This document shows positions 6,090-23,505 of a stretch of DNA of 38,565 bases, in pieces. Source of the DNA: Ferroacidibacillus organovorans (GTDB lineage: Bacteria > Bacillota > Bacilli > Alicyclobacillales > SLC66); NCBI RefSeq assembly GCF_001642725.1, contig NZ_LSUQ01000024.1:1-38565 (forward strand), read 5' to 3'. A program made the translations under genes and the position numbers. Below the pieces are notes generated by a model, which saw only the letters and a list, made by a program, of their open reading frames with translations, did not search any database and was not told the DNA's origin. Positions within the stretch are counted from its first letter, which is position 1; each line of letters begins with the position of its first letter.

Positions 6090-6353
6090 TTACCCAATTT
6101 CATCCAAGGAATCGAGTGGATGGACGCGTCCTTTTTGAAGATCTTCGTCCGCTCGTCGCTCGCGTTCTTGCCATTCCTCTGTCCAGTAGTACGCCTGATC
6201 AGGATCCAAAAGCATCATCTTCTTCGGTCGAAGTAAGATACCTTCCTGGCTGTCAATCACATCCACATAATCGCCTTCTTCAAGATGGAGTTTTTCACGA
6301 ATGATTTTTGGGATGGTGATTTGCCCATTTCGAGTGATTTTGCTGAGCGTCAT
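6090..6353 (-). CDS. AbrB/MazE/SpoVT-family DNA-binding protein (antitoxin-like)
   Basis: SKITRNGQITIPKIIREKLHLEEGDYV plus DQAYYWTEEWQ tail. ATG 6353 behind AGGAG. Confidence 0.88.
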   Translation of the reverse strand: MTLSKITRNGQITIPKIIREKLHLEEGDYVDVIDSQEGILLRPKKMMLLDPDQAYYWTEEWQERERRADEDLQKGRVHPLDSLDEIG

Positions 6354-6380
6354 GATTTTCATCTCCTGACTCATGCATTT

Positions 6381-6392
6381 TAGTAATTACTA
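6381..6392. promoter_or_regulatory. Palindromic operator upstream of the AbrB-family gene
   Basis: Perfect palindrome TAGTAATTACTA between a minus-strand TTGACC and TAAAAT. Confidence 0.5.
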
Positions 6393-6583
6393 TAATGTAT
6401 GCGCGGTCAAGGATCAATGTGCAGCGATCTGATCTAAAGGGAATTTTGACTAAGCGATGAGACTGGGTCAGATCCACGCCTATTTTCACAAAAATCCGAT
6501 TACAGAACTCACCATTTTCGAGAATAGCGGATATTTTCCTCACGCGGAGGAAGCCGAAATATTTTCTACAGAAATTTATCTTT

Positions 6584-19344: not shown

Positions 19345-19551
19345 TCAACATTCGCTCGGTTGACAAACGGTCACTCCATCAACGTTGAAATCCTTCACAT
19401 TAAAGGTGACGATCTGTGCAGGTTTCTTGACTTTTACGTATGCGCAGAGATACGCGTCAACAAAATCGACTTCCTTCTCACGACCAAATCGCTGAAATGC
19501 TTCAACCATGGTGAATCTACGAATTTCACGCACAAAAGGCCCCTTTTTCAC
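19345..19551 (-). pseudogene. Truncated PIN-domain (VapC-like) toxin
   Basis: Only 68 aa; retains DFVDAYL and TFNVKDF but lacks the N-terminal DTN catalytic motif; start overlaps the antitoxin stop. Confidence 0.7.
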
Positions 19552-19835
19552 CGCGTCTCGACCTTTTCTTTCTTTGCCGCGTCAAGGATTTCATTCCAAT
19601 CTCGATTTCTCATCTCCGGCGCAACGCCACTGGCCAAGATACCATAAACTTCGTCAGATGTAGGTAGCTTCTCAATACTTACCACCATCATTTGATCATT
19701 GATAACACGGAATACCATACGATCACCGTTCTCCATGCGTAAAGCATTTCGAATTTCACTCGGTATGACAACTTGCCCTCGACTCGAAAGGATACTCGTT
19801 GCATTCACACCATCCGAAGATTGGAACGCGATCAT
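19548..19835 (-). CDS. AbrB/MazE-family antitoxin (VapB-like)
   Basis: SILSSRGQVVIPSEIRNALRMENGDRMVF. Start uncertain (ATG 19835 or GTG 19808). Confidence 0.85.
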   Translation of the reverse strand: MIAFQSSDGVNATSILSSRGQVVIPSEIRNALRMENGDRMVFRVINDQMMVVSIEKLPTSDEVYGILASGVAPEMRNRDWNEILDAAKKEKVETR

Positions 19836-20055
19836 CTGACCAGCCCGACCTCGTATCACGTTCAACGACCGCAATCAAAATCCTCTTTTTTGATGATGTT
19901 TTAATCGAAAAAAATCTTGGTACTTTACCACAGGCACAAACTCCTATCAATCGACGTCTTATTCTTAGTATATTCCATACTATTTCTCGAAATAAGATAC
20001 ATTTATATCGTCTTTAGAATTTTTTTATTCTTACTGTGTTGCCTCGTTTGCACAC

Positions 20056-20087
20056 AAAAAATCAAAGAGGACCCGAAGGTCCTCTTT
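20056..20087 (-). terminator. Intrinsic terminator with cUUCGg loop
   Basis: AAAGAGGACC-UUCG-GGUCCUCUUU followed by GAUUUUUU on the minus strand. Confidence 0.88.
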
Positions 20088-20282
20088 TGTCGACGGATGA
20101 TTGGCCGTACGTGTTTCCTCGTACTAAGCTGTGAGGCTTGAACCTTCACCGAGGAGATCAAAGACGTGGAAACAACCGTAATTGTCTTTAGCACATCCCT
20201 CCAACTTCTTTAACGAAGTGGAATGACCATCCTACCTTGAGTGAGACGTTACGTTTTCCAACGCAACCACACCCTCTCTTCC
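20056..20282 (-). ncRNA. Unidentified structured RNA candidate downstream of the sigma54 activator
   Basis: Hand-folded: GNRA hairpin, five-way junction with loop-loop complementarity, T-loop-like hairpin, own terminator. G-U pairs and tetraloops favour the minus strand. Confidence 0.55.
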
Positions 20283-20289
20283 ATCGACC

Positions 20290-21768
20290 TTAGTCATTCT
20301 GTCCAGTGCGCGTTGTCTTATTCACCTCTGCAGAGCGCACTCCAGAAGCCGCAATGTTTCGTGAAATACCCCACTTCTTCATCTTGGACTGCAGCGTCTG
20401 CCGCGGAATCTCAAGCATGGCCGCGGCAGCGCTTAAGTTCCATTCGCAAGCGGCGAGCGCATGCACAATCATGTCACGTTCAAGCGCCTCCACACTGGCT
20501 GCAAGCCCCTGCTGCCGCCTGTCTGCAACAGGCTGTAGGCCCTTCGGCGCGTCCGTACCACCGCGCGGCGCGTGATGCTGTGTGAGATATTGCGGCAGGT
20601 GGCTCACATCGATCCACGCATCTTCCACCAGATTCATCGCGGACTCGAGCGCGTGACGCAATTCCCGCACATTCCCAGGCCATGTCGCGTCACGCAACAC
20701 CCGCAAGGCGCCTGGGGTCAGTCCGCGCACCGTCATGCCAAACCGCGCATTACAATCCCCCACAAAGTGATCGATCAGAAGTTCCAGATCCCCTCGTCGT
20801 TGCGCGAGCGCGGGAAGGCGCAAAGAAACCACCTGAATGCGATAAAAGATATCCTCGCGCAACATCTTCTCGCGCACCGCCGCCTCCGGTTCCACATTCA
20901 TCGCCGCCAAGATGCGCACATCAATTGCGCGCGACTTTTGATCCCCCAAGCGGCGAACGTGCTGGTCGTCGAGCACACGCAGGAGTTTTGCCTGAAGGTC
21001 AATCGGAAGCGCGTGGATCTCATCTAAAAAGAGCGTGCCTTCACTCGCCAATTCAAACAGTCCGGCGCGGTTTTCGGCGCCAGTGAAACTCCCCTTCACC
21101 GTGCCAAAAAGTATACCTTCAAGGAGCGGGCCAGGGAGCGCCGCGCAATTTTGCGCGATAAAGGGTCCGTTTGCGCGCGGACTCGCCGCGTGAATGCCCT
21201 GTGCAAAAAGCTCCTTTCCCGTGCCTGTCGGCCCATAGATCAAGACCGGGGACGACGTGCGCGCCGCGCGTTTTGCACGCGCTTTCATCTCAAGCAAAGT
21301 AGGGTCCGCAGTGAGTACGTCATCAAGCGTATAGCGCACCGCCGCCGAGCGCTCCCCTGAGCGTGGCGGACGCGTGGCCGCCTGGAGTTCGACGACGCGT
21401 TCTGCGAGATGCTGCACCTCCGTAATGTCTTGCGCGATCTCCAAGGCGCCATAGAGCCGCCCATCGCGGTACACGGCACGCGTCGCATTCGCGGTGTGCA
21501 CCTCATCCCCGCGAAAGTTCCGATACGATTGCCGGCGCAAGAGCACTGGATCACCTGAGCGCAACACCCGCAGCAGCGAGCTTGTCTCTTCCGTCAACGA
21601 AGGATACACATCGAGCACATGCCGCCCTAGCACCTCCTCGCGCGAAAGGCCGTCAAGCGTTGCCGCCGTTTGATTGTAGAGAATTGTCACTCCACAGTCA
21701 TTGACCGCATGAACGCCAACGCGAACGGATTCGAGCAGCGCGTGAAGCCATACATCCTCATCCTTCAT
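20290..21768 (-). CDS. PAS-domain sigma54-dependent activator, RocR/KamR type
   Basis: PAS, GPTGTGKE, ILFGTVKGSFTGA, LFLDEI, WPGNVREL, C-terminal Fis-type HTH. Confidence 0.92.
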   Translation of the reverse strand: MKDEDVWLHALLESVRVGVHAVNDCGVTILYNQTAATLDGLSREEVLGRHVLDVYPSLTEETSSLLRVLRSGDPVLLRRQSYRNFRGDEVHTANATRAVYRDGRLYGALEIAQDITEVQHLAERVVELQAATRPPRSGERSAAVRYTLDDVLTADPTLLEMKARAKRAARTSSPVLIYGPTGTGKELFAQGIHAASPRANGPFIAQNCAALPGPLLEGILFGTVKGSFTGAENRAGLFELASEGTLFLDEIHALPIDLQAKLLRVLDDQHVRRLGDQKSRAIDVRILAAMNVEPEAAVREKMLREDIFYRIQVVSLRLPALAQRRGDLELLIDHFVGDCNARFGMTVRGLTPGALRVLRDATWPGNVRELRHALESAMNLVEDAWIDVSHLPQYLTQHHAPRGGTDAPKGLQPVADRRQQGLAASVEALERDMIVHALAACEWNLSAAAAMLEIPRQTLQSKMKKWGISRNIAASGVRSAEVNKTTRTGQND

Positions 21769-23098
21769 CTAACCACTCCCTAGGGAAAAGCACGCGCGAT
21801 ACACTGGCGCGACGCGACTTTACCGCCTCGACAATGAACGATTGACGCGCGAGTTCCGTCGCGTTCCCGCTTGCGTCAAACAAATAAATCTGCTCAAACG
21901 TTGGGTCGTGTTCATCCGAACCGAGATACGAATCCTTATATGCCTGACTCCCCGCCTGATCAAAGATGACGTAAGACGCGGCTGGCAACCCCTTCTTTTT
22001 CGCAATGCGTCCCATGCGCGCCAGCCACCTCTCCGCCTCTTCCATCGAGTGAACATCCACGCTGTGAAAGAGATGCCGATTCAAAAGACGCTGCGACAAA
22101 TCAGCCAGCACCGGGTCTTCATGCCGCGTGAACGCACGCAGCGCAGACCACAGGAGGTGATCATCCAGTTCCAAATAATCCGAGATCACAGACCACTCTG
22201 CCGTGGCTGCACTCACGCCATTCACCTCTGCCATGCGCAAATCCCCTCGCAAGAGCGCGCGCATCGCTGGAAAGCCAGGGAGATCCGCGCCGACTTCCGC
22301 CGCGCGCGCAAGCGTGCGCTCGACTTGCACCTCGGCAGAGCGCGTCAAACGATGAAAATAGACATGAAGATACATATAATAGCGACACATGATATAGTCC
22401 TCAGCGATGCTCTGACCGCGCGCCAAGTCAAGTCCAATCTCCGGCTCCCCCTGCACCTCGCCGATGCGCATGACATGAAGGAGCCACTCCACGTCAAACG
22501 TCCCATAACCCGCCCCCGTCATCAGGGCATCGCGCAAGAGATAGTCCGTGCGATCCATATCAAGCTGTGAAGAGAGCAACTTTACAATCGCGCGGCTCTC
22601 CGGAAAATCCTTTTCAATCAGTCGCGCCACCTGTTCGGCGAATCCGCTGGCGTACGCTTCAAGCACCTGATGAACCTCTGTCTTTTTACTGCGGATCATT
22701 GCCGACGTGAATCGTTCGTGGCGAATGCCCGTAACTGCTTCGAGAGCGTGTGAGAATGGCCCGTGACCGATATCGTGAAGCAAAGCCGCCGCTAGCGCGA
22801 GATGGCGATACTCGCGCAGTGCATACGCCCCGCGCGTTTGCTCTCCCGCGCGATCCTCATCGAGAAAGCGGCGCGTGAGATGGGCGACGCCAAGCGAGTG
22901 TACGAAGCGGGAATGCTCGGCGCCTGGGTACACGATGTTGCTGAGTCCCAACTGTCGAATGCGCCGCAAGCGCTGAACTTCCGCCGTATTGATCAGATCG
23001 ATAAGCAATTGGTCATCCTCGCCAAACGCGATGAGATTGTGCACAGGATCGCGAAAACTCTTCACGTCACCCACCCCCTTGAGACGATCTCCGTTCAC
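21758..23098 (-). CDS. HD-domain phosphohydrolase (YwfO/dNTP triphosphohydrolase-like)
   Basis: RDPVH, QRLRRIRQLG, HSRFVHSLG, LLHDIGHGPFSH, DMDRTDYLLRD. Confidence 0.92.
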   Translation of the reverse strand: MNGDRLKGVGDVKSFRDPVHNLIAFGEDDQLLIDLINTAEVQRLRRIRQLGLSNIVYPGAEHSRFVHSLGVAHLTRRFLDEDRAGEQTRGAYALREYRHLALAAALLHDIGHGPFSHALEAVTGIRHERFTSAMIRSKKTEVHQVLEAYASGFAEQVARLIEKDFPESRAIVKLLSSQLDMDRTDYLLRDALMTGAGYGTFDVEWLLHVMRIGEVQGEPEIGLDLARGQSIAEDYIMCRYYMYLHVYFHRLTRSAEVQVERTLARAAEVGADLPGFPAMRALLRGDLRMAEVNGVSAATAEWSVISDYLELDDHLLWSALRAFTRHEDPVLADLSQRLLNRHLFHSVDVHSMEEAERWLARMGRIAKKKGLPAASYVIFDQAGSQAYKDSYLGSDEHDPTFEQIYLFDASGNATELARQSFIVEAVKSRRASVSRVLFPREWLDEG

Positions 23099-23505
23099 GG
23101 TTCAAAATCAAGTTCAATCGCAATCGTCAGCGGATGCTCATCCACGCCATGCATGACCATCGACGCGACGATCTCCGCCTGAATGCCTTGATTGGTCACA
23201 AACACCGCGAGCGTTGACGTGTACACACGCAGTTCGATCTTCCCTTCCGGAAAATCGTAGAAACCGTCTGTTGTCTGCTCCAGTTCAAAATCGTAGGAGG
23301 CGCGAACACCGCCCACCCGCTCCACACGGATGAACGGTCGGCGCGTGAGTGAAAAGGTAACGGTCGTTTCCGTCTGCGCAAAGTTCTCCTCAGGCTCGTG
23401 ATAACTCGCCTGATAAAGCGATCCCCGCATGCGAATGCGCGCGGGCGCCTTCGTATCAAGCTCCCCCGACACAATGCGAATCGTCCCTGCTCGTTCCCGC
23501 TCCAT
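23095..23505 (-). CDS. DUF1934 (YwiB-like) beta-barrel protein
   Basis: 136-aa beta-rich ORF (YHEPE, VERVGGV, YDFPEGKIEL) directly after speB, the usual position for this family. Confidence 0.6.
   Translation of the reverse strand: MERERAGTIRIVSGELDTKAPARIRMRGSLYQASYHEPEENFAQTETTVTFSLTRRPFIRVERVGGVRASYDFELEQTTDGFYDFPEGKIELRVYTSTLAVFVTNQGIQAEIVASMVMHGVDEHPLTIAIELDFEP

What the first reader, a model, noticed from the sequence alone, without database searches (positions are those of the whole stretch)
20056..20324. Unannotated ~220-nt structured RNA with five-way junction, loop-loop pairing and its own terminator
Seen (minus strand, folded by hand): a 5' hairpin GUUGCGUU-GGAA-AACGUAAC (GNRA loop, 20248-20267) extended by GGGUG/CACUC. 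A closing helix GGAUGGU/AUCAUCC (20226-20232 with 20095-20101) encloses four arms: UCCACUUC/GAAGUUGGA (20200-20222); GGGAU..UAAAGAC/GUCUUUG-AUCUC (20154-20199); GUGAAGG-UUCAAG-CCUCAC (T-loop-like, 20131-20149); GUACG-AGGAAACA-CGUAC (20107-20124). Loop UGUUUCC (20168-20174) is exactly complementary to loop GGAAACA (20112-20118), suggesting a 7-bp kissing interaction. A cUUCGg terminator follows. A SigG/SigF-like TGAATA-N17-CAGAATG (20295-20324) lies in the non-conserved-looking tail of the upstream gene. I cannot match it to a riboswitch, ribozyme, tRNA or 6S RNA. Inference: a novel ncRNA, possibly forespore-expressed, or an orphaned cis-regulatory leader that once controlled genes downstream of the activator.
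Basis: partly seen in the sequence, partly recalled or inferred. Interest (0 to 1): 0.8.

Follow-up and report, generated by a model that had tools for sequence, protein, structure and literature searches.

The report
New forespore-type structured small RNA
This is a real gene for a folded RNA of about 230 bases whose promoter looks like those used only inside developing spores; the window's relatives and many Paenibacillus species share it, no catalogued RNA family matches it, and its job is unknown.

Summary
The minus strand at 20056-20324 holds a conserved non-coding RNA gene. It has a promoter of the sigma-F/sigma-G (forespore) pattern, a helix that pairs the 5' end with the 3' end (P1), conserved hairpins, and an intrinsic terminator.

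- **Fold:** it beats all 200 dinucleotide shuffles (z -4.6 with the terminator, -4.1 without).
- **Known families:** Rfam 15 gives no match. The genome's CsfG-like locus lies on another contig.
- **Relatives:** homologues occur in 12 of 18 other genomes of the window's family. They also occur in 95 of 151 genomes of a second order, which I take to be the Paenibacillus order, some with 2-4 copies.
- **Promoter:** the pattern stands at a fixed distance in 77 of 84 distinct copies (0.5 expected).
- **Structure:** P1 and the 5'-domain helices covary.

Two of its arms exist only in the window's own genus. Its loop-loop pairing overlaps a predicted stem and recurs in 3 of 6 genera only.

Downstream genes are not conserved, so this is a stand-alone RNA and not a leader. 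No RNA-seq data were found and the function is unknown. My best guess, at low confidence, is a stable forespore RNA whose invariant purine-rich tracts bind a partner.

The parts
20319..20324 (-). -35-like element TGAATA. It lies inside the 3' end of the upstream coding region.
   Evidence: Read. The aligned position is GTATA, GAATA or GCATA in relatives. The pattern is counted in 77 of 84 distinct copies.
20295..20304 (-). -10-like element GGACAGAATG, of the forespore sigma-F/sigma-G pattern.
   Evidence: In 72 of the 77 pattern matches the -10 ends 5-6 nt before the first base of the RNA alignment.
20280..20288 (-). P1 5' strand GUCGAUGGA. The predicted transcript start is at or next to 20288.
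   Evidence: MFE. Covariation on 66 sequences.
20267..20279 (-). Near-invariant purine-rich tract AGAGAGGGUGUGG, between P1 and P2.
   Evidence: Invariant columns. It is present as AGAGAGGUGUGG in the Paenibacillus copies.
20239..20274 (-). P2: hairpin GUUGCGUU-GGAA-AACGUAAC (20248-20267), with a doubtful outer part GGGUG/CACUC.
   Evidence: On alignment A5 the GUU/AAC part is 95% paired, the inner part 75% and the outer part 60%.
20200..20222 (-). P3: UCCACUUC / GAAGUUGGA.
   Evidence: All 8 pairs show changes on both sides and 69% of cells pair in A5. The 3' strand AGAAGC(U)GGA is conserved; the 5' strand varies.
20184..20202 (-). Invariant module GGAGGGAUGUGCUAAAGAC.
   Evidence: Invariant in the 66 sequences of A4. 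These were mostly collected by scanning for this very motif. Used as a scan pattern it gave 76 loci.
20162..20198 (-). P4: GGAUGUG (20192-20198) with CACGUCU (20162-20168). It encloses the loop CUAAAG and an inserted hairpin AGACAAU/GUUGUUU (20170-20187).
   Evidence: The outer helix is 82% paired and the inserted hairpin 70% in A5. Many Paenibacillus copies lack the insertion.
20107..20149 (-). Two 3'-domain hairpins, GUGAAGG..CCUCAC and GUACG..CGUAC. They are found only in this genus.
   Evidence: Present in G000 and G001 only, out of 13 family sequences. The 3' domain is variable throughout the family.
20089..20097 (-). P1 3' strand UCCGUCGAC.
20056..20087 (-). Intrinsic terminator AAAGAGGACC-UUCG-GGUCCUCUUU followed by a U tract.
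   Evidence: Terminator scan. The terminator helix covaries in 66 sequences.

Best explanation
The stretch is an independent gene for a structured non-coding RNA of about 230 nt, and it belongs to a family not yet catalogued.

**Shown by sequence and comparison**
- A promoter of the forespore (sigma-F/sigma-G) pattern sits at a fixed distance upstream.
- The transcript would start at the first base of a helix (P1) that pairs its 5' end with its 3' end.
- Inside P1 lie conserved hairpins P2, P3 and P4, two near-invariant purine-rich tracts (AGAGAGG(G)UGUGG and GGAGGGAUGUGCYAAAGAC), and a variable 3' domain.
- An intrinsic terminator follows P1 directly.

**Inferred**
- The RNA is made in the forespore.
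- Its paired ends and terminator hairpin make it stable.
- It acts in trans, because its neighbours are not conserved and some genomes carry 2-4 copies, partly in tandem.

**Guess, about 1 in 4**
The invariant purine-rich tracts, displayed beside hairpins, bind and hold back a partner. The partner could be a pyrimidine-rich RNA (CsfG, or the 3' end of 16S rRNA) or an RNA-binding protein. The RNA would then tune translation or RNA regulation as the spore matures or wakes.
For: **Reality of the fold**
- z is -4.63 and -4.06, with 0 of 200 shuffles folding as well.

**Conservation**
- BLASTN finds it in 12 of the 18 other genomes of family f1 (E 5e-17 or better) and in none of 42 f2 genomes.
- Model R1 gives f1 12/18 and f2 0/45.
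- A 19-mer scan of named genomes gave 76 loci, mostly Paenibacillus or Paenibacillaceae, plus Sulfoacidibacillus thermotolerans. R1 matched 65 of the 77 loci searched.
- Model R2 matched 95 of 151 genomes of the order around G100 at E<=0.001.

**P1**
- 99.6% and 90.7% of cells pair in its two halves.
- Pair types are GC31/AU21/UA1, AU44/GC16/UA3/GU2/UG1, GC53/AU9/GU4 and AU36/GC12/UA3.
- 0 of 500 shuffles reach the observed covariation score.

**5' domain**
- 75% of cells pair, against 30.5-45.9% with slid partners. 22 of 31 pairs change on both sides (the alignment was fitted to the model).

**Promoter**
- 77 of 84 distinct copies match, against 0.49 in shuffles and 5 of 420 random windows.
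- The architecture matches that upstream of a SASP gene and of the CsfG-like locus in the same genome.
- GTATA and a GG-rich -10 are quoted as matching the sigma-F consensus for csfB (PMC4383634, passages read).

**Terminator**
-.

**Not coding**
- Copies differ by 2-nt indels in the 5' tract.

**Stand-alone**
- Downstream genes differ.
- There are 2-4 copies in some genomes, including tandem pairs.

**Modular**
- One distant copy (L275) keeps the promoter, P1 and the terminator but carries three GGAGGGAUGU-plus-hairpin modules.

**Purine tracts**
There are 4.62 sites per RNA against 2.45 in shuffles, and 64 of 66 RNAs exceed their own shuffle mean.
- The sequences are related, so this is one observation and not 64.
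Against: - There is no expression evidence. No listed sequencing run holding the stretch is RNA.
- The sigma factor is assigned from sequence pattern only.
- In all 11 family-f1 loci looked at (G014 and G011 were not examined), the RNA lies directly behind a same-strand gene: a sigma-54 activator, confirmed by Pfam in 6 loci, or an HD-domain protein in 2. Read-through or 3'-UTR processing cannot be excluded there.
- The 3' domain has no resolved consensus.
- The outer part of P2 pairs in only 60% of cells.
- The partner-binding guess has no direct support:
  - Duplexes with each genome's own CsfG-like RNA were no better than shuffles. z ran from +0.66 to -1.96, and 1 to 22 of 30 shuffles did as well, in 7 genomes.
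  - The shared complementary core is only about 6 nt.
  - One genus changes GGAAGAGAG to GGAUGAGAG with no matching change in CsfG.
  - The largest Paenibacillus genus sampled has lost the Shine-Dalgarno-like GGAGG of the second tract.
Confidence: 0.7

Rival explanations
1. It is a cis-acting leader or riboswitch. The P1-closed fold senses a ligand and the terminator behind it controls the gene downstream.
For: The architecture looks like an aptamer: a closing helix, conserved junction nucleotides, and a terminator 1-6 nt behind P1. In several family-f1 loci a gene follows on the same strand.
Against: - No downstream gene family is shared. The window has a MazE/AbrB-like gene, G001 an MMPL gene, G006 a sodium:solute symporter, G003 a 4Fe-4S protein, and one genus (g4) ORFs with no Pfam match.
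- In genus g7 the downstream ORFs lie on the other strand; in G007 they are a GNAT and a metallo-beta-lactamase. In the Paenibacillus loci examined (L264, L266-L268) and in L275 they also lie on the other strand: a mechanosensitive channel and DUF951, with a tRNA in L264, and a GGDEF protein in L275.
- I saw no antiterminator pairing between the P1 3' strand and the terminator. This was by eye only.
- Multiple and tandem copies are unusual for leaders.
Confidence: 0.08
2. It is the structured 3' UTR of the upstream gene, or is processed from it, and has no promoter of its own. The upstream gene is the sigma-54 activator or the HD-domain protein.
For: In all 11 family-f1 loci examined the RNA starts within about 30 nt of the stop codon of a same-strand gene of 440-500 aa. 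In the window the stop codon at 20290-20292 lies between the -10-like element and P1.
Against: The promoter pattern is kept at the same distance in loci with quite different upstream genes or none nearby, such as the rpsF-ssb region and others. Within f1 the promoter-like bases stay conserved while the protein tails around them differ.
Confidence: 0.07
3. It is a diverged paralogue of CsfG, the known forespore small RNA.
For: Both have the same kind of promoter, a similar size class, presence in spore formers, and (AG)n or GGUUUCU-like motifs.
Against: - Rfam ylbH (RF00516, the reverse strand of CsfG) does not match the region even at E<=10.
- All 41 genomes searched, G000 and 40 relatives, have their RF00516 match elsewhere. 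In the own genome it is on contig C37 at 23 bits.
- The conserved tracts here are purine-rich, while those of CsfG are CU-rich.
- The two folds share no helices that I could align.
Confidence: 0.04
4. It encodes a tiny protein: the ORF AUG GAA GAG AGG GUG UGG UUG CGU UGG AAA ACG UAA, which starts inside P1.
For: The frame is open for 11 codons in the window, and a similar 8-codon frame exists in some Paenibacillus copies (sequence).
Against: - Copies differ by 2-nt insertions and deletions inside this stretch (GGUGAAGAGAGG, GGUGAAAAGAGAGG, GGUGAAACGAGAGAGG).
- The frame shifts in the largest Paenibacillus genus.
- No ribosome-binding site can precede a start codon 5 nt from the transcript start.
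- Conservation follows base pairs and not codons.
Confidence: 0.02

Closest known systems
CsfG, the forespore-specific small RNA of endospore formers (reverse strand of Rfam ylbH, RF00516)
   Same: Both are stand-alone small RNA genes with a sigma-F/sigma-G-type promoter and an intrinsic terminator, conserved across spore-forming Bacillota, with unknown targets. CsfG facts come from passages of PMC3574147 and PMC4152353. The original paper was not held.
   Different: - There is no sequence or model match.
- The CsfG-like locus lies elsewhere in every genome searched.
- This RNA is about 230 nt, against a 136-nt Hfq-associated CsfG peak in B. subtilis.
- Its ends are closed by a long-range helix.
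- Its conserved tracts are purine-rich, where those of CsfG are CU-rich.
- It has a narrower and patchy spread: family f1, the order around G100, and one genome of another order.
raiA motif RNA (Rfam RF03072)
   Same: Both are structured, well-conserved, trans-acting RNAs of Bacillota of unknown biochemical function. raiA is tied to sporulation: its deletion lowers spore formation (abstract of PMC10861870).
   Different: - There is no model match.
- raiA sits between raiA and comFC and is made constitutively with a peak at entry into stationary phase.
- This RNA has a forespore-type promoter and other neighbours.
Sponge or decoy RNAs with repeated binding motifs, such as RosA for RoxS in B. 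subtilis or CsrB/RsmZ for CsrA
   Same: Conserved single-strand-like motifs sit beside hairpins and are repeated: two in most copies, three in L275. The gene itself is multi-copy or tandem in some genomes. RosA is known to me from the title and abstract listed for PMC8216469. The CsrB comparison is recalled.
   Different: - No partner was identified.
- The GGA of the CsrA consensus (recalled) is not kept. Variants read GAGGCGAUGUG and GAUGGUUGUGUG.
- Pairing with CsfG was no better than chance.

Membership tests
CsfG / Rfam ylbH (RF00516) | Match to the family covariance model at or above its gathering score (50 bits), on either strand | tested here: not met
   RF00516 is not listed for 19850-20450 even at E<=10. 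The whole window gives 0 matches at gathering scores. The genome's own best RF00516 match is G000:C37:6210-6357, at 23 bits.
CsfG / Rfam ylbH (RF00516) | Forespore (sigma-F/sigma-G) promoter | tested here: met
   This rests on sequence pattern only. TGAATA-N17-CAGAATG resembles the promoters upstream of a SASP gene and of the CsfG-like locus in the same genome. The pattern is kept in 77 of 84 copies. No expression test was possible.
CsfG / Rfam ylbH (RF00516) | Conserved CU-rich stretches in loops and between helices (PMC3574147, passage) | tested here: not met
   The conserved tracts here are purine-rich. The CsfG-like loci of the same genomes carry CCGGUUUCUCCUCUCCC.
raiA motif RNA (RF03072) | Covariance-model match; gene between raiA and comFC | tested here: not met
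   There is no match. The neighbours are a sigma-54 activator, an HD-domain protein, a MazE/AbrB-like protein and an MMPL transporter.
Lysine riboswitch (RF00168), 6S RNA (RF00013), T-box (RF00230), PyrR site (RF00515) | Covariance-model match | tested here: not met
   None is listed at E<=10 for the window region. None is listed at E<=1 for six Paenibacillus-type loci. My resemblances to T-box and PyrR motifs (AGAGAGG) are recalled and have no score.
Cis-regulatory leader / riboswitch (generic) | A conserved class of gene downstream on the same strand | tested here: not met
   Downstream genes differ between genera. They lie on the other strand in genus g7, in the Paenibacillus loci examined (L264, L266-L268) and in L275.
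Stand-alone small RNA gene | Own promoter and own terminator kept together with the RNA in different genomic contexts | tested here: met
   Promoter pattern in 77 of 84 copies. Terminator scan and terminator covariation. Contexts differ.
Sponge / decoy RNA | Repeated motif complementary to, or bound by, an identified partner | tested here: inconclusive
   There are two purine-rich motifs, and three in L275. They are enriched for complementarity to a recalled anti-Shine-Dalgarno motif. No specific pairing with CsfG was found. The assembly did not yield the 16S 3' end.

The most novel reading that the evidence does not exclude
This is a forespore-made decoy RNA. Its invariant Shine-Dalgarno-like purine tracts, held out beside hairpins on a scaffold with paired ends, would mask pyrimidine-rich partners: the anti-Shine-Dalgarno end of 16S rRNA, the CU-rich forespore RNA CsfG, or an (AG)n-binding protein such as Hfq. 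It would help shut down translation in the maturing spore or time its restart. That would be an RNA layer of spore dormancy not described so far.
Probability: 0.15. Interest if true: 0.85.

Novelty: new variant of a known kind. Interest (0 to 1): 0.68.

Why it matters
Few sporulation-specific RNAs are known, and CsfG still has no known target (review passage). In the papers I saw, structured RNAs linked to sporulation, such as raiA, are treated as open problems.

A second RNA with a forespore-type promoter would be a ready handle on post-transcriptional control inside the developing spore. It is larger and more structured than CsfG. It is present in about 60% of sampled genomes of a large order of soil and plant-associated spore formers, and in acid-loving relatives. 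It is testable with ordinary genetics in culturable Paenibacillus strains.

It would also add a family to the RNA catalogues, which would improve genome annotation.

Tried and rejected
1. **Rfam.** At gathering scores the whole window gave nothing. Permissive searches of the region and of six homologous loci gave only chance-level matches and neighbouring tRNAs.
2. **CsfG identity.** Rejected, because the RF00516 match lies elsewhere in all 41 genomes searched.
3. **Pairing with CsfG.** RNAduplex of the RNA with the same genome's CsfG-like RNA was done in 7 of the 12 f1 genomes for which I had both. z ran from +0.66 to -1.96, and 1-22 of 30 mononucleotide shuffles did as well. An earlier run failed on a script bug and one hit the time limit.
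4. **CsrA-type GGA sites (recalled consensus).** Dropped, because GGA is not kept in variants.
5. **Pattern scans of the named genome collection.** One search added only P. koleovorans. A second new locus, a Bacillales MAG, was not matched by model R2 at E<=1. One search returned tandem repeats and CRISPR-like arrays; I looked at 8 loci and none belonged to the family.
6. **Relatives of the three-module variant.** None were found in its family (1 genome) or its order (1 of 17 genomes).
7. **RNAalifold on MAFFT alignments of Paenibacillus copies.**
   - One run gave only P1 and the terminator.
   - Another paired the two invariant tracts with each other (UUCCGUU/AGCGGAG and GGUG/UGCC).
   - That pairing has no both-sided changes. 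By my reading it is not possible in family f1 or in the largest Paenibacillus genus, so I did not adopt it.
8. **Swap test for an inner helix between J2/3 and the bases before the P1 3' strand.** Own pairs averaged -5.65 and swapped pairs -6.33 kcal/mol over 66 sequences. There is no family-wide signal.
Own pairs averaged -5.08 and swapped pairs -4.62. The pair is good only in g1, moderate in g4 and g3.
10. **Sequencing runs.** No RNA holder is listed, and I laid no reads.
11. **Own 16S 3' end.** Not found in the assembly.
12. **Earlier notes of this scan.** Five look-ups gave nothing that bears on this.
13. **Literature.**
    - Word searches for the two motifs, as DNA and as RNA, found only unrelated papers.
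    - Searches for 'Paenibacillus / small RNA / forespore / noncoding' and 'Paenibacillaceae / structured noncoding RNA / motif / covariation' found no description of this RNA.
    - Two Breaker-lab surveys, PMC11109978 and PMC8632094, do not mention Paenibacillus or forespore in their main text. I did not see their supplements, which could list such a motif.
Full report
**What is in the sequence**

The order along the RNA strand is as follows.
- A -35-like TGAATA (20324-20319).
- 17 bases of spacer.
- CAGAATG within GGACAGAATG (20304-20295).
- The stop codon of the upstream gene (20292-20290).
- About 230 bases of RNA.
- A terminator hairpin AAAGAGGACC-UUCG-GGUCCUCUUU (20087-20064) with a U tract. 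The terminator scan finds it.

The stretch folds much better than chance. For 20056-20290 the MFE is -89.7 kcal/mol with z -4.63. For 20089-20288, without the terminator, it is -71.8 with z -4.06. In both cases 0 of 200 dinucleotide-preserving shuffles fold as well.

No tRNA or tmRNA is found in the window.

**It matches no catalogued RNA family**

- Rfam 15 at gathering scores gives nothing for the whole window.
- A permissive search of 19850-20450 lists eight matches with E 0.79 or worse. They are mostly AT-rich snoRNA-like hits and terminator look-alikes.
- Six homologous loci from other genomes give only neighbouring tRNA genes and chance matches.

The known forespore RNA CsfG is the reverse strand of Rfam ylbH (passages of PMC3574147). 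RF00516 matches a different place in every one of the 41 genomes searched. In the window's own genome that place is contig C37:6210-6357, at 23 bits. This RNA is therefore not CsfG.

**It is conserved, and far beyond the window's genus**

Within the window's own order:
- BLASTN of the core finds one copy in the own genome.
- It finds clear matches (E 5e-17 or better, 77-97% identity) in 12 of the 18 other genomes of the same family, f1. It finds none in 42 genomes of the sister family f2.
- A covariance model of the 5' domain (R1) gives the same picture in the order: f1 12 of 18, f2 0 of 45.

In named public genomes:
- I scanned them for the most conserved 19-mer and got 76 loci. Most are Paenibacillus or Paenibacillaceae. 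The rest include Sulfoacidibacillus thermotolerans and several 'Bacillota' MAGs.
- R1 matched 65 of the 77 loci searched.
- Five of the 12 unmatched loci are from non-Bacillota and look like chance. I did not examine the seven unmatched Bacillota loci further.

With a second model from these sequences (R2):
- It matched 16 of 151 genomes sampled from the class at E<=0.01.
- Seven of those 16 are in one family, f17 (7 of its 9 genomes). One is the window's own genome. One is a real variant in another order (L275).
- The other seven lack the promoter pattern and terminator in the flanks I printed, and look like chance matches.
- In the order around G100, R2 matched 95 of 151 genomes at E<=0.001: f51 45/53, f17 30/53, f45 7/12, f54 4/4, f56 4/5. 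I take this to be the Paenibacillus order, by inference from the named loci.
- Several of those genomes have 2-4 copies, some in tandem about 300 bases apart.

**The promoter**

Upstream of the RNA, relatives keep GTATA/GAATA/GCATA, then about 15 bases, then GG-CAT-CTA. I counted the pattern G[TAC]AT[AG]-N16-18-CANNNT[AG] in the 50 bases upstream of 84 distinct copies.
- 77 copies have it.
- Mononucleotide shuffles give 0.49 on average, and random windows of the same loci give 5 of 420.
- In 72 of the 77, the -10 ends 5-6 bases before the first base of P1.

The same genome shows the same architecture before a small acid-soluble spore protein gene (TGTATG-N15-GACATCCTA) and before its CsfG-like locus (GGTATAG-N16-GCCAAACTA). 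For csfB of B. subtilis, GTATA and GGGGAGGCTA are quoted as matching the sigma-F consensus (PMC4383634, passages). The fuller consensus strings I had in mind are recalled.

This is a strong sequence-level case for forespore transcription, but it is not an expression result.

**The fold that the family shares**

P1 pairs GUCGAUGGA (20288-20280) with UCCGUCGAC (20097-20089), that is, the first bases of the predicted transcript with the bases just before the terminator.
- On the MAFFT alignment of 66 full-length copies (A4) its two halves pair in 99.6% and 90.7% of cells.
- Pair types are GC31/AU21/UA1, AU44/GC16/UA3/GU2/UG1, GC53/AU9/GU4 and AU36/GC12/UA3.
- 0 of 500 column shuffles reach the observed covariation score. 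Slid partners pair in 39.8-73.3% of cells, against 90.8%.
- Between G000 and G001 the two differences in the 3' strand both keep pairing.

*Inside P1.* The 13 family sequences give P2, P3 and P4. On a wider alignment fitted to the model (A5: 70 matches, 62 distinct), 75% of cells pair against 30.5-45.9% with slid partners. 22 of 31 pairs change on both sides. That alignment leans towards the structure.
- The GUU/AAC part of P2 pairs in 95% of cells.
- The outer helix of P4 pairs in 82%.
- The outer part of P2 pairs in only 60% and is doubtful.

*P4 in detail.* It closes a loop CYAAAGA. The window's family and some Paenibacillus copies carry an extra hairpin inserted in that loop.

*Conserved tracts.* Two tracts are nearly invariant: AGAGAGG(G)UGUGG between P1 and P2, and (A)GAAGC(U)GGAGGGAUGUGCYAAAGAC across P3 and P4. 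The second varies in more distant copies, to GGAGGUGUGUG, GAGGCGAUGUG and GAUGGUUGUGUG.

*3' domain.* It differs in length and sequence between groups, and I could not derive a consensus for it.

- The 5' hairpin and the arm at 20200-20222 are right.
- The closing helix GGAUGGU/AUCAUCC overlaps P1 by three bases.
  - In the 13 family sequences 67% of its cells pair, and one pair shows GC, UA, AU and CG. However, 284 of 500 shuffles reach the same number of pairs with both-sided changes.
  - A swap test over 66 sequences shows no family-wide signal.
  - It may be an inner helix stacked under a shorter P1 in this family, or a competitor of P1. I leave it open.
- The 'T-loop-like' arm and the GUACG arm occur only in G000 and G001.
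- The loop-loop pair UGUUUCC/GGAAACA overlaps, by five bases, the inserted hairpin stem that both the MFE and the consensus fold predict.
  - A partner is strong in genus g1: -9.4 kcal/mol, with 0 of 11 swapped partners as good.
  - It is moderate in g4 and in g3. In g3 the sequence is changed to UUUACC/GGUGA.
  - It is absent in g5, g6 and g7.

**Neighbours**

In the window the order on the minus strand is DUF1934, an HD-domain protein, a sigma-54 activator (PAS, AAA+, HTH_8), the RNA, a MazE/AbrB-like small protein, and an MMPL transporter.

In all 11 family loci examined, the RNA follows a same-strand gene of 440-500 aa. Pfam shows a sigma-54 activator in 6 loci and the HD-domain gene directly in 2. 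What lies downstream differs in every genus.

In Paenibacillus genomes the gene sits elsewhere, for instance between rpsF-ssb and DUF951 with a mechanosensitive channel gene, and neighbours are on the other strand. This speaks for a stand-alone gene and against a leader.

A conserved reading frame is excluded by 2-base indels in the 5' tract.

**What it may do**

*Shown:* the gene architecture and its conservation.

*Inferred:* forespore expression, stability from the paired ends, and action in trans.

For a mechanism I can only offer a guess. The two invariant tracts are purine-rich and Shine-Dalgarno-like, and each sits beside a hairpin. One distant copy (L275) has kept the promoter, P1 and the terminator but carries three GGAGGGAUGU-plus-hairpin modules. 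Some genomes multiply the whole gene. These are traits of RNAs that hold a partner.

The tracts are the best sites for a recalled anti-Shine-Dalgarno motif: 4.62 sites per RNA against 2.45 in shuffles. The sequences are related, so this is one observation. The assembly did not give me the organism's own 16S end.

Tests for a specific partner were negative.
- Duplexes with the same genome's CsfG-like RNA are no better than shuffles.
- The common complementary core is about six bases.
- One genus changes its tract without a matching change in CsfG.
- The largest Paenibacillus genus has lost the GGAGG of the second tract.

**Limits**

- No RNA run holds the stretch, so nothing here shows a transcript.
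- Genome samples were drawn from larger groups, so 'not found' means not found in those searched.
- The wider structural counts rest on a model-fitted alignment.
- I found no printed description of this RNA in the searches. The supplements of the motif surveys and the original CsfG paper were not seen.

Noticed in passing
G000 contig C37, about 6130-6437 (locus L440), outside the window: The genome's CsfG-like locus (Rfam ylbH, 23 bits) has its own forespore-type promoter. It lies about 1.5 kb from a SASP gene (C37:4580-4759) that also has one.
   Followed up: partly
L275:1501-1730 (G160, another order): This variant of the RNA keeps the forespore-type promoter, the end-pairing helix and the terminator. 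It has three tandem GGAGGGAUGU-plus-hairpin modules and no AGAGAGGUGUGG tract. No relatives of it were found in its family or order.
   Followed up: partly
One search places, e.g. G341:C3:157246-157659, G299:C1:23680-24108, G238:C1:1139725-1140147: Some genomes of the second order carry 2-4 copies of the RNA gene, including tandem pairs about 300 bases apart.
   Followed up: no
G293:C1:458394-458504 and 460086-460224: In one genome a copy of the RNA lies about 1.6 kb from the CsfG-like locus, on the opposite strand (convergent).
   Followed up: no
Alignment A6, Paenibacillus-type copies: The two invariant tracts are complementary to each other (UUCCGUU with AGCGGAG, GGUG with UGCC). That could give an alternative long-range fold. 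There are no both-sided changes, and by my reading of the sequences the pairing is not possible in the window's family.
   Followed up: partly
3' domains of Paenibacillus-type copies and CsfG-like loci: A GGUUUCU-like motif recurs in the 3' domain of many copies and also in the invariant CCGGUUUCUCCUCUCCC of CsfG. It could pair with the conserved AGAAGC of this RNA. I judged this by eye only.
   Followed up: no
window 19548-19874 (-) and 19922-19950 (-): A MazE/AbrB-like 108-aa ORF lies downstream of the RNA, behind an AT-rich spacer that holds the only sigma-70-like promoter match of the region.
   Followed up: no
window 20290-23505 (-) and loci L002-L013: The gene order DUF1934, HD-domain protein, sigma-54 activator is seen in the window. 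In relatives only the last one or two of these genes were seen, and two genera lack the activator, so that the RNA follows the HD gene directly.
   Followed up: partly
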